Positions 3,181-39,250 of a DNA stretch of 64,000 nt are shown here, piece by piece. Every line of letters begins with the position of its first letter. Positions within the stretch are counted from its first letter, which is position 1. This stretch comes from Minisyncoccia bacterium. Lineage in GTDB: Bacteria; Patescibacteriota; Minisyncoccia; Phycocordibacterales; UBA918. Under the pieces are notes generated by a model. The model searched no databases. It saw only the letters and a list, made by a program, of their open reading frames with translations, and was not told the DNA's origin. The stretch is from NCBI GenBank assembly GCA_046293175.1, contig JBKBPM010000002.1:158428-222427 (forward strand). Reading direction: 5' to 3'. A program made the translations under genes and the position numbers.

Positions 3181-4924
3181 AGACTATATACTTACTGATG
3201 TCGATTTCTTCATCTGACGCTGGCGGTAGGTCTTTAGTTCGTCGTACATTCTGAAGATCAACCACACGCTCGAGTTCATCAATTGTCGTGACACCAGCGA
3301 GTACCTTAATCATACCATCTTCCGCCATACTCGGAATTTTTTGTGGAGCAGCTGCATCAAGAATCATGACTTCACGAGGATCACGAATGACAATTTCCTC
3401 TACCGCATCATCAATAATGATTGCTTCAAATACACCCACTCGACCTTTAAAGCCGGTACCACCACAAACATCACAGCCAACACTTTCATAAATCGTTACT
3501 CCATCTGGGATTGTTACTGGTTCTGGATAATGAGCGAGGGTTTGTCGCATAATAGTTACTTGTTCTGGTGTTGCCACTACCGCTTTTTTACAGTGTGAAC
3601 AAAGGACACGAACGAGTCGTTGTCCGAGCATTACGTTAACTGAACTTCCGATAATACGTGGATCAACACCGAGGTCGATAAGGCGAGGGAAGCCACCAGC
3701 CGCACTGTTGGTGTGTAGTGTAGAAAATACCAAGTGACCAGTCTGGGCTGCGTGAATAGCGGTTTCGGCTACTTCACGGTCACGGATTTCTCCTACCATA
3801 ATGATGTCAGGGTCTTGACGGAGAATGGCACGAAGACCAGAGGCAAATGTGTAATCGGGTCCGATTTGGGTTTGGACAATACCGGTCAGTTTATATTCAA
3901 CAGGGTTTTCAATAGTGATGATTTTTTTCTCACTATCATGAACAGCCCGCAAAAATGCATAAAGGGCAGTGGTTTTACCTGAGCCAGTTGGACCGGTAGT
4001 AATAATAAGACCGTTTGGTCGCTTGAGTTCACGCTCCATCACTGCTTTAAGGTATGGGTTAAGGTCTAGTTTATCGATACTAAAACTCGCAACATTTGGG
4101 TCAAGGAGACGCATTACCATTGATTCGCCACTAGCACCGGGGATTACTGAGGCACGCACTTCAATCTCAGTTTCGCCAAAGACGAATTGAAATCGACCGT
4201 CTTGTGCTTCTTTACGTTCATTGAGGGTCATACCCGACAACAATTTGAGGCGACTCATTAACCGTCCATAGAGGTGACTGTCGATATCAGCAATATCAAG
4301 GAGTACACCATCAAGACGATAGCGGAGTCGAATACCAGTTGCCGCTGGTTCGATATGGATGTCAGATGCCTTGAGTGCGAGGGCTCCTGCGAACATAAGC
4401 TCAAGTGTTTCAGATATTTGGCGTGGGCTGTTAACGGATGAAATTTTTGTGAGACCTTGGTGTACATCACCAATCGTTTTGATGGTACCAGCAGTCGCAT
4501 TAATCGCATCAGTATTGATATCAAGTATCCCTTTCTTACTCGCGGTGGTCATTTTTTGATCTGCGTATCGGATGAGGCCGTGTTCGATACTGGCACGAGA
4601 AGCCAAAAAGACGGAGAGGGTATAACCAGCTTGTTTCAGCTCGTGTAGCAACTGTGCCGTATTTGGTTCTTGAGGGGCCATTACTGCTACCGAGAGGTTT
4701 TGACGCGTCAGGGCAAAAGCGATGACGTTGGCCTGCCTGGCCCGAACTTCCGGCACTTTCATGAGAGCTTCGGGATTGATAGTCACACCATGAAGGTCGA
4801 TATACTTCAGCCCGTATTTTGGTGCCAAACTTTGCATCAAAGCCTCCTCACCTCGCTTGCGAAGGTCAGCGATACGTTTATTAGTATCATCATCATGGAA
4901 CTGATTCATACCCGTATTGTACAT
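3179..4924 (-). CDS. pilB: Type IV pilus/type II secretion assembly ATPase, GspE/PilB family
   Basis: 581 aa; N-terminal GspE_N-like region, Walker A GPTGSGKTT, tetracysteine CSHC..CDVCGGTG motif. Confidence 0.85.
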   Translation of the reverse strand: MYNTGMNQFHDDDTNKRIADLRKRGEEALMQSLAPKYGLKYIDLHGVTINPEALMKVPEVRARQANVIAFALTRQNLSVAVMAPQEPNTAQLLHELKQAGYTLSVFLASRASIEHGLIRYADQKMTTASKKGILDINTDAINATAGTIKTIGDVHQGLTKISSVNSPRQISETLELMFAGALALKASDIHIEPAATGIRLRYRLDGVLLDIADIDSHLYGRLMSRLKLLSGMTLNERKEAQDGRFQFVFGETEIEVRASVIPGASGESMVMRLLDPNVASFSIDKLDLNPYLKAVMERELKRPNGLIITTGPTGSGKTTALYAFLRAVHDSEKKIITIENPVEYKLTGIVQTQIGPDYTFASGLRAILRQDPDIIMVGEIRDREVAETAIHAAQTGHLVFSTLHTNSAAGGFPRLIDLGVDPRIIGSSVNVMLGQRLVRVLCSHCKKAVVATPEQVTIMRQTLAHYPEPVTIPDGVTIYESVGCDVCGGTGFKGRVGVFEAIIIDDAVEEIVIRDPREVMILDAAAPQKIPSMAEDGMIKVLAGVTTIDELERVVDLQNVRRTKDLPPASDEEIDISKYIV

Positions 4925-5443: not shown

Positions 5444-7830
5444 CCAAAAAACCTGCCCCTGAAACCCTTGTCCTGTTAGACGCTCACGCGATTTTACACC
5501 GGGCCTTTCATGCGTTGCCTGACTTCACGTCACCAAGTGGAGAACCAACTGGCGCTTTGTATGGGGTAGTAGCTATGCTCTTGCGGATTATTGAAGAGTT
5601 TAAACCAACCTACATTGCTGCTTGTTTTGACTTACCAGAGCCAACCTATCGGCACGATGCGTATGCAGATTACAAAGGGACGCGAACCAAAACGGATGAA
5701 GCACTGGTGATGCAGATCAAACGATCCTATGATATTTTTGCTGCTTTTGGTATTCCCGTCTTTGAAGTAGCTGGGTTTGAGGCTGACGATATGCTCGGTA
5801 CCATTGCCCACCAAATGAAGGAACATAAAACAATTGAAGTTGTTATTGCTTCGGGTGATATGGATACACTTCAGTGTGTAGATAAAAAGCGGGTGAAAGT
5901 ATATACCCTCAAAAAAGGCATTAATGACACCATTCTCTACGACGAGGCAGCAGTGCTCGAACGGTTTGGCTTTCCGCCAAAGCTTGTTCCTGACTACAAA
6001 GGTTTGCGGGGAGACACCTCAGATAACATTCCGGGTATCCGGGGTATTGGCGAAAAGACCGCTAGTGATTTGATTAGGCAATTTGGTAGCCTTGAGGCCA
6101 TCTACAAGGTTCTTAAAAAAGATCCAGAGAAACTCAAAACTGCTGGTATCAAAGATCGGATGATAGGTCTCTTGCGTGATGGGGAAGAGGAAGCGCTTTT
6201 TTCAAAAATGCTCGCGACCATTCGCACCGATGCACCAATTACTATAGATCTTGAAACGATGCGCTGGCGTGAAAAGCTTGATACTGAACGCATTGGCGCC
6301 CTGTTTGGTGAGTTTGGTTTTCGTACCTTAGGAGCTCGGGTCAAAAGTATTATTGGTGCGACGCTTCCGACACCTGATGAGTCTACATTTGGGGCGAGTA
6401 ACGTGAGTCACGAGCAGTTAACTCGACTCCAAATCTATCTTTGGCTGCTTGAGAGTGAGCGTACCAATGCATCCCTTTCAGATATTATCGACTATGGTCG
6501 GGCGTACCTTGGTACCACTGAACCCACTACTATTGAAACCGCGCTCGAGGCACGGCTCAAAGAGGAAGGGACCTGGCGTGTGTACGAAGAAATCGAGGCA
6601 CCTCTGATACCGGTCCTTGCGTACATGCATGAGGTGGGAATTTCACTTGATGTGCCGTACCTGAAGACGCTCTCAGTAAAAATGCACGACGAACTCACCA
6701 AGCTCGAAACCGCGATTTATGAAGCAGCAGGGCAGACCTTTAATATCAATTCTCCAAAACAGCTGGGAGATATCTTGTTTGATACTTTAGGATTAAAACC
6801 AAAGCAGCAAAAGAAAACGGCGGGTGGGCAACGTTCAACCAAAGAGTCTGAACTCGAGAAGATGCGCGATATGCATCCGATCATTGATTACATTATGCGG
6901 TATCGGGAATTACAGAAATTGGTATCGACCTACATCGATAATCTCCCGACCTATGTGGCAAGTGATGGCCGGGTACACACTACCTTCATTCAAACTGGGG
7001 CCGCGACCGGCCGTATGGCGTCACAAAATCCAGGTCTCCAAAATATCCCGGTACGGACCGAAGAGAGTCGAGCTATTAGACAAGCTTTTGTTGCTACGCC
7101 GGGGTACACACTCGTGTCAATCGATTACTCACAAATCGAACTGCGGGTAGCGGCGATTCTCTCGCGTGATGAAAAGCTCATCGATATCTTCAAGCGTGGG
7201 GAGGATGTGCATACGGGGGTCGCTATGCGCGTCTTTGGGGTGACGGCAGAAGAAGTTACGAAGGACATGCGCCGCAAAGCTAAGGTGATCAACTTTGGTA
7301 TTCTTTATGGTATGGGCGTTAATGCGCTGCGGGGTAACCTCGGTGATGATACAAGTCGGGAAGAAGCCCAACAGTTCTACACTGCTTACTTTAATACCTT
7401 CACCACCCTCGCCGCTTACCTTGAAGACACTAAAGCCGCGGCGCGACGTGATGGGTATACAAAAACCCTTTTTGGTCGTCGTCGTCATTTTCCGGGTATC
7501 AATTCAGGTGCACCCTTTATTCGCGCCATGGCCGAACGCATGGCGATTAATGCACCAGTCCAGGGTACGGCAGCCGATATGATGCGGGTAGCGATGATTA
7601 ACATCTACACCCGTCTTACACTTGAGAATAAAACTGATATCGTCCGCATGCTCCTCCAGGTACACGACGAACTCGTTTTTGAGATTAAAGATGAGGTGCT
7701 CGCCAAAGAAATTGGTGTGCTTAAAGCCGAGATGGAAGCGGTACTTGCTGACTTTGAGACCTACGGAGTACCACTGACTGCTGAAGCTGCAACCGGAAAA
7801 AATTGGGGGGAGTTGGTACCCTACAAATAA
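5440..7830 (+). CDS. polA: DNA polymerase I (5'-3' exonuclease + polymerase domains; no obvious 3'-5' exonuclease domain)
   Basis: 796 aa; 5'-3' exo N-terminus, family A polymerase motifs (RRxAKxxNFGxxYG, QVHDELV); start overlaps tsaE stop (ATGA). Confidence 0.9.
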   Translation: MTKKPAPETLVLLDAHAILHRAFHALPDFTSPSGEPTGALYGVVAMLLRIIEEFKPTYIAACFDLPEPTYRHDAYADYKGTRTKTDEALVMQIKRSYDIFAAFGIPVFEVAGFEADDMLGTIAHQMKEHKTIEVVIASGDMDTLQCVDKKRVKVYTLKKGINDTILYDEAAVLERFGFPPKLVPDYKGLRGDTSDNIPGIRGIGEKTASDLIRQFGSLEAIYKVLKKDPEKLKTAGIKDRMIGLLRDGEEEALFSKMLATIRTDAPITIDLETMRWREKLDTERIGALFGEFGFRTLGARVKSIIGATLPTPDESTFGASNVSHEQLTRLQIYLWLLESERTNASLSDIIDYGRAYLGTTEPTTIETALEARLKEEGTWRVYEEIEAPLIPVLAYMHEVGISLDVPYLKTLSVKMHDELTKLETAIYEAAGQTFNINSPKQLGDILFDTLGLKPKQQKKTAGGQRSTKESELEKMRDMHPIIDYIMRYRELQKLVSTYIDNLPTYVASDGRVHTTFIQTGAATGRMASQNPGLQNIPVRTEESRAIRQAFVATPGYTLVSIDYSQIELRVAAILSRDEKLIDIFKRGEDVHTGVAMRVFGVTAEEVTKDMRRKAKVINFGILYGMGVNALRGNLGDDTSREEAQQFYTAYFNTFTTLAAYLEDTKAAARRDGYTKTLFGRRRHFPGINSGAPFIRAMAERMAINAPVQGTAADMMRVAMINIYTRLTLENKTDIVRMLLQVHDELVFEIKDEVLAKEIGVLKAEMEAVLADFETYGVPLTAEAATGKNWGELVPYK

Positions 7831-9041: not shown

Positions 9042-9086
9042 GGATCTTCCCCTACGGGACGGTACAGGTTTCGTAACATTATTTGT

Positions 9087-9200
9087 GGTCACGAATCACT
9101 AAGTATATTTCTTCACTACGTTCGAAATCTACTAAGTGTTCGCGACCCCGCCTCGCGGTTTTCTGCTTTGGTCAAGCAGAAAACATCGCTGCGGCTCGCG
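9087..9200 (+). repeat. tRNA-downstream structured module, copy A (18-nt mini-repeat 9087-9104 + ~90-nt main repeat 9112-9200), antisense to tRNA-Lys
   Basis: ~80% identical to reverse complement of 36206-36290; the hairpin shows compensatory changes (GGTTTTCTGCTT/AAGCAGAAAACA here vs GGTTTTCTTTT/AAAAGAAAACA in copy B); partial copies at 32058-32118 and 33237-33302. Confidence 0.6.
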
Positions 9201-9236
9201 CCACCGTCGCAAGCAATACTAATTGCTTGCTAAACC

Positions 9237-9270
9237 AAAAACATCCCCATTAGCTAATGGGGATGTTTTT
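9237..9270. terminator. Intrinsic terminator hairpin AAAAACATCCCCATTAGCTAATGGGGATGTTTTT downstream of tRNA-Lys
   Basis: Perfect 12-bp stem flanked by A5/T5. Confidence 0.6.
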
Positions 9271-9279
9271 GGTTTTCGG

Positions 9280-21769: not shown

Positions 21770-22400
21770 GCTAGTCTCTTTAACTATTACTCGGATATAT
21801 TCATCGGTGCAACACGATACTACAATTTACTTGATTGGAGTGAAATAAAGATTTCGTTATCGTAGCTGATTCCTTGATAATAGATTCGTACTATGAGACT
21901 TTGATTTTCAAAGTAATCTTTTGGACGAATAGATATTTTACGGTGATATATCTTGTTCAGTTTTAAGGGTATAACATCAATTTGGTATCGAAGTGGTTTA
22001 CCAGGAAGTGGTTCAAGGCTAAGTATTTCAATTTTTTCCGTCCCATTTATTACTTGTATCTCCATTTCTTTCGAAGGATATAACCATTCTAAAAGTACAC
22101 TTGGGATTCTAAAACGAAAGAGTCCATATCACACTTTTGGTTTAAGTGAAAAACTTATATCAGTTACAGTTAGATTGAAAGCCGCAGCTTCTGGCCAGAA
22201 TATGTTTTTTGATTTAAGAAATTATGAACTATGGATGTCTAAATCCTCTGGAATAAAGAAAACCTTAAACGTAAGAGGTATAAATTTCTTTAACAATGGT
22301 TTCATTGTAAATTTAATTACTCCTAGAATCAATGCCAAGCCAATAGTTATTTTAATCATAATGTTACATTTTACCACCTGAGAGAGATTCGGTCGCTACA
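21770..22400. other. AT-rich islet (~33% GC vs ~50% flanks) abutting the 3' end of tRNA-Ser; possible remnant of foreign DNA
   Basis: Compositional break visible by eye; only weak ORFs; ends at an inverted copy of the tRNA-Ser 3' end. Confidence 0.5.
21820..22065 (-). CDS. Hypothetical small protein inside AT-rich islet
   Basis: 81 aa, MEIQVINGTEKIEILSLEPLPGKPLRYQIDVIPLK; plausible beta-rich protein, no homology assignable. Confidence 0.3.
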   Translation of the reverse strand: MEIQVINGTEKIEILSLEPLPGKPLRYQIDVIPLKLNKIYHRKISIRPKDYFENQSLIVRIYYQGISYDNEIFISLQSSKL

Positions 22401-22496
22401 CGACCAGTACACCTTTTGGGTACTTTATTTCGCACGGCTCATAAAGTTCTGCAAAAGGTTTTCGAATCCCTACGCACAAGCTCCCAGCTTGTGCTC

Positions 22497-22556
22497 TCTC
22501 TCCGCGAACAAAAAAGGCGCCAAACGGCGCTCTATTTTGTACTCGCGGAGAGAGAG
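22497..22556. repeat. 14-bp perfect inverted repeat (CTCTCTCTCCGCGA / TCGCGGAGAGAGAG) made of the tRNA-Ser 3' acceptor end and an inverted copy, flanking a GC hairpin
   Basis: Read directly; inverted copy continues into a degenerate T-arm-like TTCGAATCCCT at 22474-22484. Confidence 0.6.
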
Positions 22557-22632
22557 GGATTCGAACCCTCGAGGAGCTTTCACCCCTAACAGTTTTCAAG
22601 ACTGCCGCCTTCAACCACTCAGCCATCTCTCC
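22546..22632 (-). tRNA. tRNA-Ser (anticodon TGA), long variable arm
   Basis: Manual fold: acceptor GGAGAGA/TCTCTCC, anticodon loop CTTGAAA, variable arm ~18 nt, T-arm GAGGGTTCGAATCCCTC; ORFs 22396..22749(-) and 22489..22815(+) are translation artefacts of this gene. Confidence 0.9.
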
Positions 22633-22756
22633 AATATATGCAATTTTTGTAGGTGGTTGAAGGTTCGTCCACCTGGCACTGGTTCGCTTTCGCTCACATC
22701 GTGCCTCCGCGATTTGATCGCGGAACGGATCAAAAGTGAAACTTTTCACTTTTCAT

Positions 22757-22774
22757 CCACTCAGCCATCTCTCC
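22757..22774 (-). repeat. Direct partial copy of tRNA-Ser 5' end (GGAGAGATGGCTGAGTGG) 125 nt upstream of the gene
   Basis: 18/18 identity to 22615-22632; followed by hairpin-rich sequence, no matching 3' half. Confidence 0.55.
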
Positions 22775-22899
22775 AAATATATTCAGTTGTGGCATGCACT
22801 ATAGCATTTTTTTGATTTTATACAACCATAGCTCGTAGGGGTGCGAGGGTAGGGGAAAGACCACTTTGACGTCCATCCCCATGCTAAAATAAAATTACT

Positions 22900-23499: not shown

Positions 23500-23566
23500 C
23501 AAACGGCCGACCCATATGCGCAAGCATATGGGTCGTTGCCGTTTGTAGCTCTCACCAGGAATCGAA
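23481..23566. repeat. ~38-bp imperfect inverted repeat: tRNA-Arg 3' end plus trailer pairs with an inverted copy (loop CGCAAG)
   Basis: Arm 23481-23518 vs arm 23525-23566; followed by second GC hairpin 23569-23601. Confidence 0.6.
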
Positions 23567-23762
23567 AGACTGTTCCGGGGTCCCCTTAGGGCCGGAACAG
23601 TCCGGGTCGGGCGAATGAGATATTTTATGAGGCACGAAATAAAATATCCATGAGCGTGACCGATTCCTTCTAAAGAATTGCGTTAGGAATCGAAGCCCGA
23701 TTGAGCTGGATTATGAGCTTGCGAAATAATCCAGCCAATTGGGTGACTTCCCCTGTAAGGAC

Positions 23763-23782
23763 CGATTCCTGGTGAGAGCACA
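23763..23782 (+). repeat. Direct repeat of tRNA-Arg 3' end (CGATTCCTGGTGAGAGCACAA) ~270 nt downstream of the gene
   Basis: 20/20 identity with 23483-23502; att-like duplication signature but no integrase nearby. Confidence 0.55.
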
Positions 23783-23899
23783 ACTACGAAAAAGCGCACC
23801 CTTATGAGTGCATTTTTCGTTCGTGCTCCCATCAAAAACTACCTGAAGCATAATGTAAAACAGCATCCCTTTCGGGAGCTGTTTTACATGAGCTAATTA

Positions 23900-31069: not shown

Positions 31070-31575
31070 CCAAACAAACTGTCACAACGCTTGGTGTTGC
31101 TTCTCTCTACTTTGTGATTGTGGCGTCGGTTATGGTGTATGCGTTTATATCGGTACGTTCGCAAAAAGCTGATGCGCTGGCACTGGCGACTACATTGGCA
31201 GAACAGACGAGTAAACAATCGGTCGCTCGCACAGTAGCCACTACCATTGAATCAACCGCCGCACTTCGCGAAGAGGTCAGCACGTACTTTTTAGAAGAGA
31301 AAGAAACCATCTCGTTTATTACCGAGATTGAAGGTCTCGCTGGTGTACTTGGAGTGACGATTGAAACAACCTCCCTAGATATGACTAAAACAGAAGGTGG
31401 TCGGGGTGAGCTCAAAACTGGCTTTTCAGTAAAAGGCACCCGAGCAGCGGTGCTCCGTTTTATGGAGGCAATTGAAACACTCCCATACCATAGTCGGATT
31501 GCGACCATGCAGGTGACCGGTGAGGGTAATGAATGGCGTGGACAGGTAGATATCTTTGTTACAATAAAACCATGA
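31066..31575 (+). CDS. pilO: PilO-like pilus assembly protein
   Basis: 169 aa; single N-terminal TM, coiled-coil, position after pilN with 4-bp overlap. Confidence 0.5.
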   Translation: MTKQTVTTLGVASLYFVIVASVMVYAFISVRSQKADALALATTLAEQTSKQSVARTVATTIESTAALREEVSTYFLEEKETISFITEIEGLAGVLGVTIETTSLDMTKTEGGRGELKTGFSVKGTRAAVLRFMEAIETLPYHSRIATMQVTGEGNEWRGQVDIFVTIKP

Positions 31576-32030
31576 TAGACCAAGCGCGTATTCAACAAAT
31601 AGTAAAACGTCTTCTGAAGTCGCCTTCGGTCGAGGAACGACAAGCCATTAATCCACCACGGGAATGGGCCCTTGGTATTATGCTTTCACTAATTGGTGTT
31701 GGGGTAGGAGGGGCGGTGAGTTACCTTTCATATCTAAATACCGTATCGGTTGAGGTGGTGGCTCCGGTAGTTGTTGAACCTGCAGCGTATAGCGGGGTAG
31801 TAGTCGAAGGTGCCGCGATGCAATTCCGAGAGCGGGCAGCGCGGTTTGCCGAGCTGCGCGGGGACACTAGTGTTCCGGTTCCAGCGCCAATTGAAACTGT
31901 GGCAACTACAACAAAAGCCGAAGTACCGCCACCGACAGAAGTTGAAGTTGTGCCGGAGATACCAGAGACACCAGTCGATGAGGCTCCGGCTTCGGAACCG
32001 GATGGTTTGACACCGGAGTTGGGTGTGTAG
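31572..32030 (+). CDS. Hypothetical membrane protein with Pro/Glu/Val-rich C-terminus (possible PilP/PilQ-associated)
   Basis: Start taken at ATGA overlap with pilO stop; one TM (ALGIMLSLIGVGVGGAV). Confidence 0.45.
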   Translation: MIDQARIQQIVKRLLKSPSVEERQAINPPREWALGIMLSLIGVGVGGAVSYLSYLNTVSVEVVAPVVVEPAAYSGVVVEGAAMQFRERAARFAELRGDTSVPVPAPIETVATTTKAEVPPPTEVEVVPEIPETPVDEAPASEPDGLTPELGV

Positions 32031-32057
32031 GGTACAGTTACAAATCGTGAATCATTT

Positions 32058-32118
32058 GGTCACCAGTCACTAATTATAATTGTTCACTACGTTCGAAATC
32101 TACTAAGTGTTCACGACC
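32058..32118 (+). repeat. tRNA-downstream module, partial copy C (mini-repeat + first ~36 nt of main repeat), antisense to tRNA-Arg(TCT)
   Basis: TTCACTACGTTCGAAATCTACTAAGTGTTC identical to copy A for 30 nt. Confidence 0.5.
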
Positions 32119-32249
32119 TTGGCTTGGAATCGTCCTGACGGTCACCAAGCTAGATTGTTTCGTATACACTCACAATCTAGCAGGTGCCGCGGGACACGGC
32201 TCGCCGGCCCTAAACTTGCAAAAGCGTCCCACGCTTTCTCACCCGGCTT

Positions 32250-32340
32250 TGCCGTTCGATTCCAAGCCGTGCCTACAAATGGCAACAGCCAGAACGCATG
32301 CGCGTGCTGGCTGGCCATTTGTGCCCCGGCTTGGAATCGA
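32250..32340. repeat. ~36-bp inverted repeat: tRNA-Arg(TCT) T-arm/acceptor/trailer pairs with an inverted copy; inner palindrome CGCATGCG
   Basis: Arm GTTCGATTCCAAGCCG.GGCACAAATGGC.AGCCAG on both strands; same architecture as at tRNA-Arg(GCG). Confidence 0.6.
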
Positions 32341-32392
32341 ACCAAGAATAACGGCTTAGAAGTCCGCAGTTATATCCATTTAACTACCGGGA
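32321..32392 (-). tRNA. tRNA-Arg (anticodon TCT)
   Basis: Manual fold: acceptor GTCCCGG/CCGGGGC (one G-U), D-arm GTTAAATGGATATAAC, anticodon loop CTTCTAA, T-arm CTTGGTTCGATTCCAAG; 72 nt; ORFs 32107..32406(+) and 32142..32345(-) are spurious. Confidence 0.7.
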
Positions 32393-32487
32393 CGCACCCC
32401 ATCTAAAGATGAGGTGAAGCTAGCATAGCAAAAAAATGCTGTGTCGGAAACTTCGTAAATCGTGGCAGGTTTTGTATACTAAGGCGT

Positions 32488-33225
32488 ATGCAAACACGAC
32501 CGACTATTCTCTTGGTACAATTCAGACAAACTCCTGCTGCAGATTTGCTTGAACGACAGAGTATTGAACGTGAAGTTTCTCCTTTTGTAACTGTAAAAAC
32601 AATTTGTGGTGTCACTGAAGATGTTCGGGCAGTATTAAACGAAGTCGATGGAGTGATTCTTGGTGGTTCGGGCGACTACGACTTTGATGGGGCGCGGTCA
32701 GTTGATGATCCGGTGCGGGCTCGTACTGAGAGCCTCTTCCGTTCTCTTGGTCCGACGCTTGATTATTTATTTACTATCGATAAACCCCTCCTTGGTATCT
32801 GTTTTGGACACCAGCTCATGGGTGCCTTTCGAGGGGCTAGTGTCTATCATGATAAAGAGCAGAGTAAGTTGAAGACTCACACGGTGACCATGCATGAGGA
32901 AGGGCGAAATCATCGCCTGTTCGCGAACATGCCGACTACCTTTGATGCGCAGTATGGGCACAAGGATGTACTTGCACATATTCCGACGGGCGCAACGTTG
33001 CTCGCCCACGGCGGTGAGTCGTGTCGGGTCTCAGCGCTCGCGTATAGTGATAATATTATCTCGACACAATTCCATCCCGAATTGACCTTAACCGATATGT
33101 ATGACCGTGTGGCCCATATTCCACACTATTTGCCTGAGGGAACGACCGTGGATGAAATGTTTTTTGATACTCCGCACGCGCGGACGATTTTGCATAATTT
33201 TGCGAAGGTGGTGGCGGTGGGGTAG
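32488..33225 (+). CDS. Class I glutamine amidotransferase-like protein
   Basis: 245 aa; nucleophile elbow GICFGHQLM and His/Glu region typical of GATase1. Confidence 0.7.
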   Translation: MQTRPTILLVQFRQTPAADLLERQSIEREVSPFVTVKTICGVTEDVRAVLNEVDGVILGGSGDYDFDGARSVDDPVRARTESLFRSLGPTLDYLFTIDKPLLGICFGHQLMGAFRGASVYHDKEQSKLKTHTVTMHEEGRNHRLFANMPTTFDAQYGHKDVLAHIPTGATLLAHGGESCRVSALAYSDNIISTQFHPELTLTDMYDRVAHIPHYLPEGTTVDEMFFDTPHARTILHNFAKVVAVG

Positions 33226-33236
33226 GGGCGGGACTT

Positions 33237-33302
33237 GGTCATAAGTCACTAAGCTTTTTATTGAACTCAGTTCATAAAAATCTAAGTACTTGCGACCCCT
33301 CC
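33237..33302 (+). repeat. tRNA-downstream module, partial copy D, antisense to tRNA-Val
   Basis: GGTCATAAGTCACTAAGC + TTCATAAAAATCTAAGTACTTGCGACCCCTCC; ~75% identity to copy A. Confidence 0.5.
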
Positions 33303-33418
33303 TTGACTCTCTCTTTCTCCGCTTCGCTCCGAAATTCGCATGAGTCCCCGGCTTTCAAGTCCCTTATCGCCAGACCAACAGCAACGGCCGGAACACTAAC
33401 GTGTTCCGGCCGGCTGAT

Positions 33419-36124: not shown

Positions 36125-36127
36125 CAA

Positions 36128-36155
36128 TATAAAAGACGCACCGAGGTGCGTCTTT
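36128..36155 (+). terminator. Intrinsic terminator AAAAGACGCACCGAGGTGCGTCTTTT after tRNA-Leu
   Basis: Perfect hairpin with A4/T4 flanks. Confidence 0.6.
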
Positions 36156-36205
36156 TATATTGTGCCCAAGAAGAAAAGCATTAATATGCTTTTCGTCTGG
36201 ATTTG

Positions 36206-36290
36206 AAAGCCGCAGCGTTGTTTTCTTTTAACAAAAAAGAAAACCGCGAGGCGGGGTCGAGAGTACTTAGATTTTTATGAACGAAGTGAA
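36206..36290 (-). repeat. tRNA-downstream module, copy B main repeat (reverse complement of copy A), antisense to tRNA-Leu; mini-repeat at 36523-36540
   Basis: ~80% identity to 9112-9200 with compensatory hairpin substitutions; mini-repeat ACTTAGTGATTCGTGACC identical to copy A. Confidence 0.6.
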
Positions 36291-36592
36291 ATAAAAAGCT
36301 TTGTAACTTGTGACCTAATCCAGTCTTGGTTATTCATAATACCGAAACGGGTGAGCCCTGGGTGAGAAATGGGAAAGGGACCCATTTCGCAAGACCTTTT
36401 GAGAAATCTTTTATTTCCAAAAGGGGTACTGCTCCTGTAAGGAGGAAGTTCTTACTAGAATTGGAGCGAAGCAAACAATTATAGTTAGCAACTTGACCCC
36501 AGTGAAAATACGCACCTCAAAAACTTAGTGATTCGTGACCAAGACAAACAACTTCTGACCAAATCCACTCTCTACACCACCGTCTATAGCTG

Positions 36593-39126: not shown

Positions 39127-39177
39127 TGTTCAAGTATAGAATAGTAGCAGGTTAGACGCCAGATGGCATTTTTATTG

Positions 39178-39250
39178 GGCGGCTACCGGGAATTGAACCC
39201 GAATTGAGAGTTCCACAAACTCCAGTAATAACCATTATACCATAGCCGCC
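39178..39250 (-). tRNA. tRNA-His (anticodon GTG) with genomically encoded G-1
   Basis: Manual fold: G-1 + acceptor GCGGCTA/TAGCCGC, anticodon loop TTGTGGA, T-arm TCGGGTTCAATTCCCGG. Confidence 0.85.

What the first reader, a model, noticed from the sequence alone, without database searches (positions are those of the whole stretch)
32040..32420. Unannotated tRNA-Arg(TCT) hidden under two spurious ORFs, embedded in a giant palindromic region
The ORF track proposes 32107..32406(+) and 32142..32345(-), and both contain the triplet-repeat peptide LAWNR, which is a translation artefact of GGCTTGGAATCG repeats. The region actually encodes a 72-nt tRNA on the minus strand, whose 3' end is buried in a ~36-bp inverted repeat plus nested palindromes (CGCATGCG core; CTAGATTG...CAATCTAG). 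Three T-loop-like copies (CGATTCCAAGCC) occur within 220 bp.
Basis: seen in the sequence. Interest (0 to 1): 0.5.

Follow-up and report, generated by a model that had tools for sequence, protein, structure and literature searches.

The report
tRNA-Arg gene with stacked insertion cassettes
The region holds a real arginine tRNA gene, and the large palindrome beside it is the first of several stacked copies of a small, gene-less, hairpin-rich mobile cassette that inserts at the 3' ends of tRNA and other essential genes in one group of ultra-small (Patescibacteria) bacteria and appears not to have been described before.

Summary
ARAGORN and Rfam both call a tRNA-Arg(UCU) at 32322-32393(-). The two ORFs over it have no Pfam family. 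The 12-mer occurs three times only here, and a 36-bp hairpin buries the tRNA 3' part.

The palindrome is neither an artefact nor a one-off. Six of the window's seven tRNAs carry similar 3' flanks. A 62-nt terminal hairpin (HP4) recurs downstream of tRNA/tmRNA genes in 58 loci, 57 of them from Patescibacteria MAGs, and it also follows ftsZ, rplB and rpsI. HP4 shows strong compensatory covariation and a G.U bias on the tRNA-sense strand.

Metagenome contigs with the same tRNA-Arg differ in their 3' flank: 3 are empty, 5 carry the "type 2" cassette and 2 carry "type 1". One occupied contig (L084) equals an empty one (L158) plus a single 179-nt insertion flanked by an 18-nt repeat of tRNA positions 56-73.

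The focal region is therefore layered:
- a type-2 cassette, holding the palindrome (tRNA 3' part paired with a cassette-borne antisense copy);
- a truncated direct repeat;
- a remnant hairpin of a type-1 cassette;
- older debris.

No recombinase lies in any copy or in the window, so what moves the cassettes is unknown. I rate it a new variant of tRNA-targeting integrative elements.

The parts
32322..32393 (-). tRNA-Arg(UCU) gene. No CCA is encoded, and A73 lies at 32322.
   Evidence: ARAGORN. Rfam RF00005 at 56.6 bits over the full model. The identical gene is found in 10 metagenome contigs.
32256..32340 (-). Long hairpin of 36 bp. The 5' arm is tRNA positions 54-73 plus the trailer CAAATGG and the outer half of HP1. 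The 3' arm is the cassette-borne complement.
   Evidence: MFE helix 32340..32302 / 32297..32256. Across 12 homologous copies at three different tRNAs, 15 of 30 pairs show compensatory double changes.
32278..32320 (-). HP1 of the type-2 cassette: trailer stem AAATGG/CCATTT, a 12-bp inner stem (32286-32297 / 32302-32313), a 4-nt loop and a TTG bulge.
   Evidence: Inverted repeat I6. The same geometry with different sequence occurs in the window's Arg-gcg and Val cassettes and in L065, L084, L130, L131, L140, L143, L152 and L156.
32254..32269 (-). A': the antisense copy of tRNA positions 53-68, a perfect 16-nt complement of 32327-32342. On its 5' side (RNA sense) it is preceded by the shared imperfect segment GTAGGCA.
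   Evidence: Inverted repeat I2. The same imperfect acceptor part occurs in L084, L130, L131 and L152, so A' is inherited with the cassette.
32196..32255 (-). Middle module of cassette E1 (HP3-like), including the 8-bp hairpin AAAGCGT-GGG-ACGCTTT at 32220-32238.
   Evidence: MFE helices. Homologous segments occur in L130, L131, L140 and L143.
32132..32195 (-). Terminal hairpin of cassette E1, a variant of HP4 with 22 bp.
   Evidence: Covariance model R1 hit at 32124-32200(-), 24.7 bits, rough E-value 5e-4. MFE helix. In L065, L143 and L156 the same hairpin is followed by a complete 19-nt repeat.
32121..32132 (-). Direct repeat CGATTCCAAGCC (tRNA positions 56-67). It is the displaced older tRNA 3' end at the distal junction of E1, truncated after position 67.
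   Evidence: Direct repeat D3. Full-length counterparts of 18-19 nt occur in L084, L065, L143 and L156.
32057..32118 (-). Canonical HP4: a 62-nt hairpin with apical loop GAACGTAGTGAA. It is all that remains of an older type-1 cassette.
   Evidence: nhmmer 65.6 bits. R1 63.5 bits. Family covariation. The same order, type-2 cassette then partial repeat then HP4, occurs in L131, L140 and L067.
32032..32056 (-). Debris. AATGATTCACGATTTGTAAC looks like the collapsed start of a still older type-2 cassette (AAATG..TTTGTA). TGTAC is the last piece of the native terminator and abuts the stop codon of the convergent ORF (31533-32030).
   Evidence: Comparison with L084 and L158, where CGTACAAG...CTTGTAC(C/G)CTA..CAACTCTGG precedes the same convergent gene. 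This assignment is an inference.
32107..32406 (+). Spurious ORF of 99 aa. Its partner at 32142-32345(-), 67 aa, is also spurious.
   Evidence: No Pfam family for either. Both lie entirely over the tRNA and the hairpins, and their AWNR repeats translate the 12-mer.

Best explanation
The region is a functional tRNA-Arg(UCU) gene whose 3' flank has been built by successive insertions of small (about 130-220 nt), gene-less, multi-hairpin cassettes. These cassettes belong to a family confined, as far as sampled, to Paceibacteria-type Patescibacteria.

What is shown
- A 'type 2' cassette enters the tRNA gene in the T-loop, at the 55/56 junction.
- It brings its own copy of tRNA positions 56-73, so the gene stays intact.
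- That copy is followed by a hairpin (HP1), an antisense copy (A') of the tRNA 3' part, a middle hairpin (HP3) and a conserved terminal hairpin (HP4).
- The previous tRNA 3' end is pushed to the far side as an 18-19-nt direct repeat.
- The 'giant palindrome' is the tRNA 3' part paired with A' around HP1.
- In this window the proximal type-2 cassette is followed by a truncated repeat, then by the HP4 of an older 'type 1' cassette (a class that inserts right at the tRNA 3' terminus with almost no repeat), then by debris of an older cassette and of the native terminator.

What is inferred
- The cassettes are non-autonomous and are moved in trans, most likely by a site-specific recombinase acting at the T-loop or 3' end.
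- Alternatively, for type 2, they spread by RecA-type double crossover after DNA uptake, with the conserved gene as the left homology arm and the direct repeat as the right arm.
- The hairpins act as a folded single strand of tRNA-sense polarity, either as the tRNA's read-through trailer RNA or as top-strand ssDNA.
- The enzyme and the role of A' are not known.
For: The tRNA is real.

The flank is a systematic feature:
- Inverted repeats that include the tRNA 3' end occur at 5 of the 6 other tRNAs of the window.
- HP4 occurs only 4 times in the window, each 121-202 nt downstream of a tRNA on its strand.
- Weaker extra copies inside the Arg-tct, Leu and Arg-gcg flanks show tandem stacking.

Distribution:
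- A 22-specified-base HP4 pattern found 58 loci in GTDB species genomes. By my arithmetic about 0.07 chance hits are expected.
- All are Patescibacteria MAGs except one contig labelled Acidimicrobiales.
- 42 of the 59 hits outside the window (L002-L059) have a same-strand tRNA or tmRNA 87-493 nt upstream, most often 120-137 nt, covering at least 17 anticodons.

HP4 is a hairpin (60 sequences):
- 87% of cells are paired, against 31-45% when the partners are slid.
- 10 pairs show double changes, in 127 compensatory cells; 0 of 500 shuffles reach this.

Strand polarity:
- G.T outnumbers A.C by 83 to 6, or 25 to 6 without the one fixed pair.
- The tRNA-end-to-HP3 stretch folds better as the sense strand in 34 of 45 elements, Wilcoxon p = 5e-5.

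Mobility:
- Among 10 metagenome contigs with the identical tRNA, 3 are empty, 5 carry type 2 and 2 carry type 1.
- L084 equals L158 plus one 179-nt insertion, with the 18-nt repeat CGATTCCAAGCCGGGGCA and otherwise colinear flanks that differ only by scattered substitutions.
- Layered arrays occur in L065, L067 and L142.
- The window's Arg-gcg has two cassettes and then a perfect 19-nt repeat before the native terminator. That terminator directly follows a different cassette in L020 and L059.

The cassette carries its own copy of the target's end:
- Displaced ftsZ ends still encode VPAFLRRSKLK* but differ at synonymous sites.
- The displaced copy in L014 has the sequence of the functional copy in L002.

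A' is inherited yet tracks the target:
- The same imperfect GTAGGCACGG occurs in five lineages.
- 15 of 30 hairpin pairs covary across Arg-tct, Arg-gcg and Val.

Non-autonomy:
- None of the 86 detected HP4 copies lies in a cassette that holds an ORF, except one HTH cargo gene.
- No recombinase, transposase or RT Pfam domain occurs among the 43 window ORFs of at least 170 aa.
Against: - No mobilising enzyme was identified.
- The only recombinases seen next to tRNAs are large serine recombinases at tRNA-Val. Their elements do not end in HP3/HP4. The one exception, L070, is better read as an older mini cassette pushed outward.
- It is unexplained how one family acquired matched sense and antisense copies for more than 20 different targets.
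- HP1 often looks like an intrinsic terminator, which sits awkwardly with an RNA role for the HP3/HP4 downstream of it.
- Orthologous cassettes are conserved between species with compensatory changes (L020 vs L059). Host-level selection for the structure therefore cannot be excluded.
- The loci were ascertained through HP4 itself, so the tRNA association there is only partly independent. The unbiased sample is the 104 Arg-tct loci, where 40 carry some cassette feature.
- The assignment of the distal 25 nt as debris is an inference.
Confidence: 0.75

Rival explanations
1. The flank is a host-selected, non-mobile 3' structure of stable-RNA genes, serving as terminator, insulator or processing signal. 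The tRNA-complementary arm is kept for an RNA-level function, for example sequestering or marking read-through transcripts.
For: - The structure favours the sense strand.
- HP1 is commonly an A-tract/T-tract hairpin.
- A' covaries with the tRNA.
- Orthologous cassettes are conserved with compensatory changes.
- The cassettes fill the whole spacer up to convergent genes.
Against: - Identical tRNA genes occur with no cassette, with type 1 or with type 2.
- There is a clean 179-nt insertion with an 18-nt repeat.
- There are tandem stacks with decaying distal copies.
- Displaced ftsZ ends carry synonymous differences.
- No terminator consensus is found at the focal hairpin.
- A host function and mobility are not mutually exclusive.
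Confidence: 0.1
2. The cassettes are scars, that is internally deleted ends or att remnants, of larger integrative elements or prophages. Those elements would integrate into tRNA genes with large serine recombinases, and the cassettes would not be a self-standing family.
For: - L070 has a 598-aa serine recombinase (Resolvase + Recombinase + Zn_ribbon_recom) overlapping the tRNA-Val 3' end. At the far side of a 5.4-kb stretch lie A'-HP3-HP4 and a 19-nt repeat.
- Homologous recombinases sit at tRNA-Val in L180-L185, three of them at the locus syntenic with this window.
- L052 shows a cassette carrying a cargo gene.
Against: - The other five recombinase loci have no HP4 and no tRNA repeat at their far end.
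- In L070 an HP1-like hairpin and a full A' precede HP3/HP4, as in a complete mini cassette. The recombinase element therefore seems to have been inserted between the tRNA and an older cassette, as type 1 is in L142.
- Cassette size and module order are uniform across more than 80 copies.
- No homologue of that recombinase occurs in any other locus held or in the window.
Confidence: 0.1
3. The palindrome is a local accident: an inverted duplication of the tRNA 3' end by template switching, or the remains of an inverted tRNA pseudogene. It would be unrelated to any element family.
For: Quasi-palindrome extension by intrastrand template switching is a known mutational process (my knowledge). The arms are perfect only over 16 nt.
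Against: - The same architecture, with the same TTG bulge and the same imperfect GTAGGCACGG, recurs in many independent contigs and at other tRNAs.
- It is always followed by HP3/HP4 modules and, in complete copies, by the direct repeat.
- No other part of a tRNA is present in inverted orientation.
Confidence: 0.03
4. The palindrome is an assembly or amplification artefact (a chimeric fold-back).
For: Palindromes are typical products of fold-back chimeras (my knowledge).
Against: - The palindrome is imperfect.
- An independent Logan assembly is 100% identical across it.
- Homologous hairpins with compensatory substitutions exist in at least 10 other metagenome contigs.
Confidence: 0.01

Closest known systems
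Integrative elements (genomic islands, prophages) in tRNA/tmRNA genes, with the T-loop and 3'-end 'sublocations' of Williams, Nucleic Acids Res 2002 (cited from memory)
   Same: - The targets are the 3' part of tRNA and tmRNA genes and the 3' ends of conserved protein genes.
- The element carries a replacement copy of the gene's 3' end, so the gene stays intact.
- The displaced native end remains as a direct repeat that starts in the T-loop (type 2) or at the very 3' end (type 1).
- Tandem arrays form with the newest copy next to the gene.
   Different: - The cassettes are only 130-220 nt, with no integrase or any other gene.
- One family, sharing HP3/HP4, serves more than 20 different targets.
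- Each copy also carries an antisense copy of its target, forming a long hairpin with the gene's end.
- The hairpins show single-strand (sense) covariation, which is not a feature of double-stranded att arms.
SCC / pseudo-SCC composite islands at the 3' end of rlmH (orfX) in staphylococci, moved by Ccr large serine recombinases (my knowledge)
   Same: - Stacks of elements sit at the 3' end of one conserved gene, each bounded by a short direct repeat of that gene's end.
- Many units lack recombinase genes and depend on recombinases supplied in trans.
- Large serine recombinases are the recombinases seen next to tRNA genes in these Patescibacteria.
   Different: - SCC units are kilobases long with cargo genes and have a single target gene.
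- They have no target-antisense arm and no conserved RNA-like hairpins.
- A link between the cassettes and the serine recombinases was sought and not found.
Integron gene cassettes and their attC sites (my knowledge)
   Same: - Cassettes are short and promoterless, and are stacked at a fixed site with the newest proximal.
- The recombination-site analogue is an imperfect hairpin conserved in structure more than in sequence, with conserved unpaired bases and strand-specific folding.
- The unit boundary lies at the base of the hairpin: HP4 ends ...GTGAC|C56.
   Different: - No R''/R' (RYYYAAC / GTTRRRY) boxes, and no intI or attI.
- The cassettes carry no ORF but instead a gene's 3' end.
- The platform is any of many tRNA or protein genes.
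Bacterial MITE-like palindromic repeats (REP/REPIN, Correia, RPE, RUP, ERIC) (my knowledge)
   Same: They are small, non-coding, hairpin-forming, multi-copy and intergenic, are often found at gene 3' ends, and break assemblies.
   Different: - No terminal inverted repeats and no 2-10-bp target duplication of DDE type.
- Strong target specificity for tRNA 3' ends.
- An 18-36-nt repeat of the target gene's end.
- A target-matching antisense arm.

Membership tests
tRNA (Rfam RF00005) | The cloverleaf scores above the curated threshold over the full model | tested here: met
   56.6 bits against a gathering score of 29, model positions 1-71. ARAGORN calls anticodon tct at position 34.
tRNA (Rfam RF00005) | Conserved as a gene in relatives, i.e. 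not a decaying copy | tested here: met
   The identical 73-nt gene occurs in 10 metagenome contigs, and the same anticodon arm with the A31-G39 mismatch occurs in at least 120 contigs.
Integrative element at a tRNA gene (T-loop sublocation) | Direct repeat of the tRNA 3' segment at both junctions, with the gene kept intact | tested here: met
   An 18-nt repeat of C56-A73 in L084, and 19-nt repeats in L065, L143 and L156. In the window the repeat is truncated to 12 nt at 32121-32132.
Integrative element at a tRNA gene (T-loop sublocation) | Occupied and empty versions of the same site exist | tested here: met
   L158 (empty) against L084 (occupied) differ by a single 179-nt insertion. Overall there are 3 empty, 5 type-2 and 2 type-1 sites among identical tRNAs.
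Integrative element at a tRNA gene (T-loop sublocation) | The element encodes its own integrase next to an att site | tested here: not met
   No ORF in the cassettes. No recombinase domain in the window. The L070-type recombinase is absent from all other loci held.
MITE (miniature inverted-repeat transposable element) | Terminal inverted repeats and a short fixed-length target-site duplication | tested here: not met
   The two ends differ: tRNA copy plus HP1 at one end, HP4 at the other. The repeat is 18-19 nt of a specific gene for type 2 and no more than about 3 nt for type 1.
Integron cassette / attC | R''/R' core sites and linkage to intI/attI | tested here: not met
   By eye, no RYYYAAC / GTTRRRY boxes at the hairpin bases. 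No integrase in the window. Whole genomes could not be searched.
Intrinsic terminator (as a reading of the focal hairpin) | G+C-rich stem followed by a T-run | tested here: not met
   No terminator-like site in 31500-33000. HP1 of many other copies does have A/T tracts.
Any described RNA family (Rfam 15) | A match to a curated covariance model | tested here: not met
   Only tRNA reaches threshold in the window. Permissive scans of two cassettes give only chance-level miRNA-hairpin matches.
Group I / group II intron or retroelement | Ribozyme core or RT, with insertion splitting the gene | tested here: not met
   The tRNA is uninterrupted. No intron family matches. A' includes the trailer and no CCA, so it copies the gene and not the mature tRNA. 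Group II introns were not detected in Patescibacteria in a survey of complete genomes (PMC13011429).

The most novel reading that the evidence does not exclude
The cassettes could be a self-contained, integron-like exchange system without a dedicated element-borne enzyme. In this reading, hairpin-structured single strands (RNA or ssDNA) swap and stack alternative 3' ends of essential genes (tRNAs, tmRNA, ftsZ, ribosomal-protein genes) between lineages of naturally DNA-importing Patescibacteria. The antisense arm A' would fold onto the gene copy to create the recombination or priming substrate. That would be a new mode of target recognition, in which the element carries a folded mimic of its target.
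Probability: 0.2. Interest if true: 0.85.

Novelty: new variant of a known kind. Interest (0 to 1): 0.62.

Why it matters
If the reading is right, a large share of tRNA genes in a major branch of ultra-small bacteria carry stacked, gene-less cassettes that replace the gene's 3' end. In the unbiased sample about 40% of tRNA-Arg(UCU) loci carry one, and in this window six of seven tRNAs do.

Practical consequences:
- The cassettes generate spurious ORFs.
- They break metagenome assemblies.
- They hide tRNA 3' ends inside long hairpins.

Biological consequences:
- They are evidence for frequent horizontal exchange at essential genes in organisms thought to have few mobile elements.
- They pose a concrete mechanistic puzzle. 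One non-coding family matches more than 20 different targets with both a sense and an antisense copy, and has a strand-specific conserved hairpin with an invariant T.T mismatch, a G.U wobble and a conserved 12-nt apical loop, which suggests an unknown protein partner.

Tried and rejected
- Known RNA families: nothing but tRNA was found.
- Viral contigs with the HP4 pattern: no match. Phage and plasmid collections by blastn: no match.
- Literature searches on Patescibacteria repeats, MITEs, structured RNAs, serine recombinases and miniature integrative elements found no description. TIGR arrays and the Patescibacteria tRNA group I introns that turned up are unrelated in architecture.
- Mature-tRNA-templated reverse transcription (a PBS-like reading of A') is rejected. 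A' copies the gene's trailer, lacks CCA where the gene lacks it, and extends past position 58. A survey of complete genomes detected no group II introns in the phylum.
- Fresh copying of the target at each insertion (fold-back priming) is rejected as the general rule. The same imperfect A' is shared by five lineages.
- Group I-like 3'-exon replacement is rejected. There is no ribozyme core and most distal copies are degenerate.
- A link to the L070 large serine recombinase was pursued with tblastn, a viral scan, a homologue search and six genomic contexts. The recombinases sit at tRNA-Val, but their elements lack HP3/HP4.
- Replication-strand bias: cassette orientation simply follows the tRNA.
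- A T-loop-like word in ftsZ as a common target motif does not coincide with the junction.
Full report
**1. The observation**

The minus strand of 32322-32393 encodes a tRNA-Arg(UCU).
- ARAGORN calls it.
- The Rfam tRNA model matches over its full length at 56.6 bits, against a threshold of 29.
The same anticodon arm occurs in at least 120 independent metagenome contigs, and the identical 73-nt gene in ten. This is therefore the normal form of the gene in this lineage.

The repeats and palindromes are also real.
- GGCTTGGAATCG occurs three times, only here in the 64 kb (0.21 expected).
- A perfect 16-nt inverted repeat joins tRNA positions 53-68 to 32254-32269.
- The nested palindromes are present.
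- The best fold has one 36-bp hairpin, 32340..32302 / 32297..32256.
- The whole flank folds far better than shuffles do (z = -8.4).

The two ORFs have no family, and their AWNR repeats are the translated 12-mer. An independent Logan assembly is identical across the palindrome, so the palindrome is not an artefact.

**2. The flank is not unique to this tRNA**

- Of the other six tRNAs in the window, five have inverted repeats that include or abut their own 3' end. Two also have a direct copy of their T-loop-to-acceptor segment about 200-270 nt downstream.
- Four flanks (Lys, Arg-tct, Val, Leu) share a 62-nt motif, here called HP4: GGTCG..ACTTAG..GAACGnAGTGAA..CTTAGTGA..GTGACC. It occurs nowhere else in the window.
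- A covariance model also finds weaker HP4-like hairpins inside the Arg-tct flank (32124-32200), the Leu flank and the Arg-gcg flank. Cassettes are therefore stacked.
- The Ser and Arg-gcg flanks use a second class of terminal hairpin with apical loop GAGCnnGCGAA.
- Only tRNA-His is bare.

**3. Distribution**

- An HP4 pattern with 22 specified bases found 58 loci among one-genome-per-species GTDB contigs. I estimate about 0.07 chance hits in that collection.
- All are Patescibacteria MAGs (Kaiserbacteria, Paceibacteria/Parcubacteria, Yonathbacteria and similarly labelled bins), apart from one contig binned as Acidimicrobiales.
- 42 of the 59 hits outside the window (L002-L059) lie 87-493 nt downstream of a same-strand tRNA or tmRNA, most often 120-137 nt. 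At least 17 anticodons are represented.
- Several of the remaining hits lie within about 250 nt of the end of the sequence held, several of these at true contig ends.
- About eleven hits follow protein genes: the ftsZ C-terminal end in four genomes, rplB, rpsI, a uppS-like gene and an HTH gene.
- Nothing similar is in IMG/VR, the phage collection, the plasmid collection or Rfam 15.
- Five literature searches found no description.

**4. Anatomy**

Lining up 40 copies gives this order: tRNA 3' end | HP1 | [A'] | HP2 | [A'] | HP3 | HP4 | (direct copy of the tRNA end).
- HP1 is variable in sequence. It is either an A-tract/T-tract hairpin or a G+C-rich 12-bp stem with a TTG bulge.
- HP2 is a short conserved hairpin, ..AAGCAA...TTGCTT..
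- A' is complementary to the gene's own end.

Two classes exist.
- Type 2 (16 of 44): A' covers positions 54-73 and is often split by HP2 exactly between the acceptor part and the T-stem part. The right junction is always ...GTGAC|C56-R57-A58, followed by a copy of positions 56-73.
- Type 1 (about 26 of 44): the cassette starts right after the tRNA's last nucleotides. A' pairs only with the last 5-7 nt of the tRNA plus the first 3-7 nt of the cassette, and the repeat is at most 1-3 nt.

HP4 is a genuine hairpin.
- In 60 sequences, 87% of cells pair, against 31-45% when the partners are slid.
- Ten pairs show double substitutions, in 127 cells; no shuffle reaches this.
- A T.T mismatch is invariant. 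A G.U wobble (58 of 60), a bulged A and A.G mismatches are near-invariant or common.
- Caveat: 22 positions were fixed by the search pattern, so the covariation rests on the free positions.
- G.T outnumbers A.C by 83 to 6, or 25 to 6 without the fixed wobble.
- The upstream part of the cassette folds better in the tRNA-sense orientation in 34 of 45 cases (p = 5e-5).
- The selected structure is therefore that of a single strand of tRNA polarity.

**5. Mobility**

I used the one metagenome scan to collect tRNA-Arg(UCU) loci irrespective of their flanks.
- Of 104 loci with at least 350 nt downstream, 21 have the inverted T-arm copy, 19-23 have the direct copy, 19 have canonical HP4 and 64 have none of these.
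- Among the ten loci with exactly the window's tRNA, three are empty, five have the type-2 cassette and two have a type-1 cassette.
- L084 aligns to the empty L158 as a single 179-nt insertion. It is bounded by the 18-nt repeat CGATTCCAAGCCGGGGCA, and the right-hand copy is followed by the same base, the same native terminator and the same convergent gene as in L158.
- Layering is visible in three loci:
  - L065: type 2, then a complete 19-nt repeat, then a type-1 cassette.
  - L142: type 1 inserted between the tRNA and an older type-2 cassette (GTGACC|AAATGGCC...).
  - L067: type 1, then a decayed type 2.

**6. The cassette brings its own copy of the target's end**

- At ftsZ the successive copies of the last 11 codons all encode VPAFLRRSKLK* but differ at many synonymous sites.
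- The displaced copy in L014 has the sequence of the functional copy in L002, including its A' and HP3.
- These copies therefore evolved as working gene ends in different lineages before being stacked. This is the signature of elements that integrate into the 3' end of a gene and restore it.
- A' is also inherited rather than copied afresh. The same imperfect acceptor part (GTAGGCACGG, where a perfect complement would read GTGCCCCGG) is shared by the window, L084, L130, L131 and L152.
- Across targets A' nevertheless tracks the tRNA. In twelve homologous hairpins at Arg-tct, Arg-gcg and Val, 15 of 30 pairs show compensatory double changes.

**7. Reading of the focal region (tRNA sense, descending coordinates)**

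| Coordinates | Feature |
|---|---|
| 32393-32322 | tRNA-Arg(UCU) |
| 32321-32133 | Type-2 cassette E1 |
| 32320-32278 | HP1 of E1 |
| 32269-32254 | A' of E1 |
| 32255-32196 | HP3-like module of E1 |
| 32132-32121 | Truncated direct repeat CGATTCCAAGCC |
| 32118-32057 | Canonical HP4, the remnant of a type-1 cassette |
| 32056-32037 | AATGATTCACGATTTGTAAC, which looks like the collapsed start of an older type-2 cassette |
| 32036-32032 | TGTAC, the last piece of the native terminator, abutting the stop of the convergent ORF |

These assignments rest. The last two rows are inferences. The order 'type-2 cassette, partial repeat, HP4' is shared with L131, L140 and L067.

**8. What moves them**

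- No cassette contains an ORF, except for one HTH cargo gene in L052.
- None of the 43 window ORFs of at least 170 aa has a recombinase, transposase or RT domain.
- A search for distant repeats found a 5.4-kb stretch at tRNA-Val in L070. It holds a 598-aa large serine recombinase overlapping the tRNA end, and A'-HP3-HP4 plus a 19-nt repeat at the far side.
- Homologues are common in Patescibacteria (481 at E <= 1e-20). In six contexts they again sit convergent with tRNA-Val, three of them at the locus syntenic with this window.
- Those elements have neither HP4 nor a tRNA repeat at their far end. In L070 the far end looks like a complete older mini cassette.
- I therefore do not claim that these recombinases move the cassettes. 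They do show that tRNA 3' ends are recombination hot spots in these genomes.
- Two routes remain open:
  - A site-specific enzyme acting in trans. This is needed at least for type 1.
  - For type 2 and the protein-gene cassettes, an enzyme-free double crossover after DNA uptake. The conserved gene would be the left homology arm and the direct repeat the right arm. This would also explain the choice of highly conserved targets. The window does encode pilus/uptake-type genes (PilM and a T2SSE ATPase), but that is only circumstantial.

**9. Comparison with known systems**

- The cassettes behave like integrative elements of tRNA/tmRNA genes in three respects: repeats that start in the T-loop or at the 3' end, restoration of the gene, and stacking.
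- They also resemble recombinase-less pseudo-SCC units and, formally, integron cassettes with structured attC sites.
- They fail the defining tests for each of these families: no integrase, no R boxes or intI, no terminal inverted repeats.
- They add features I have not seen described: a target-antisense arm that forms a 20-40-bp hairpin with the gene's own end, and a shared, strand-specific terminal hairpin used across more than 20 targets.

**10. Verdict**

- The palindrome is the visible part of an apparently undescribed family of non-autonomous insertion cassettes.
- I rate it a new variant of a known kind, with interest 0.62.
- The enzyme, the form in which the cassettes move, and the role of A' and HP4 are unresolved.

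Noticed in passing
window 9077-9279(-), 22370-22544(-), 23501-23790(+), 33228-33418(-), 36126-36510(+): Five other tRNA genes of the window carry cassettes of the same family on their 3' side: Lys-ttt, Ser-tga, Arg-gcg, Val-tac and Leu-gag. Arg-gcg and Leu each have two in tandem. Arg-gcg ends with a perfect 19-nt copy of its 3' end (CGATTCCTGGTGAGAGCAC) before the native terminator. tRNA-His (39177-39249) has none.
   Followed up: partly
L070 7303-12820 (JACCDX011194796.1); L180-L185: A 598-aa large serine recombinase (Resolvase + Recombinase + Zn ribbon) lies convergent with tRNA-Val and overlaps its 3' end. The family is large in Patescibacteria (481 homologues), and in three contigs it occupies the locus syntenic with window 32-35 kb. 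Serine rather than tyrosine recombinases appear to be the tRNA-linked integrases here.
   Followed up: partly
L002 6770-7100(-), L014 5412-5720(-), L026 ~6900-7120(+), L035 ~3250-3600(+): The last 11 codons of ftsZ (VPAFLRRSKLK*) are a recurrent cassette target. Stacked displaced copies keep the peptide but differ at synonymous sites, and one genome's displaced copy equals another genome's functional copy.
   Followed up: yes
L052 1-1240(-): A cassette at tRNA-Gln carries a 198-aa HTH_31/HTH_3 gene with a promoter-like TTGACA..TATTTT upstream. The gene sits between the displaced tRNA repeat and HP1-A'-HP3-HP4, which is followed by a perfect 19-nt repeat. This is the only cargo-bearing copy seen.
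   Followed up: partly
HP4 apical loop, e.g. window 32083-32094(-), 9111-9122(-): The 12-nt loop GAAC-GNA-GU-GAA and the alternative GAGC-NNN-GC-GAA covary in their inner two pairs. They could close with tandem G.A/A.G pairs over a tri- or tetraloop. Words like TAGCGA/TAGTGA recall the CS-6 motif of ssoA single-strand origins (from memory). None of this was tested.
   Followed up: no
L013, L018, L039, L040, L042, L047 (held sequence or contig ends): In many loci the held sequence stops within about 100-200 nt of a cassette, and in several (for example L018 and L047) this is the true contig end. This suggests that the repeats fragment assemblies of these genomes.
   Followed up: no
L083 1640-4440(-): An IS3-family insertion sequence (OrfA HTH plus a split rve-type OrfB) lies within a 2.8-kb stretch between tRNA-Arg(tct) and an 18-nt copy of its 3' end.
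   Followed up: no
window 22610-22634 and 22752-22776: A 25-nt direct repeat (96% identical) of the 5' end of tRNA-Ser(tga) lies 142 nt upstream of the gene. The 5' side of a tRNA can therefore also be duplicated here.
   Followed up: no
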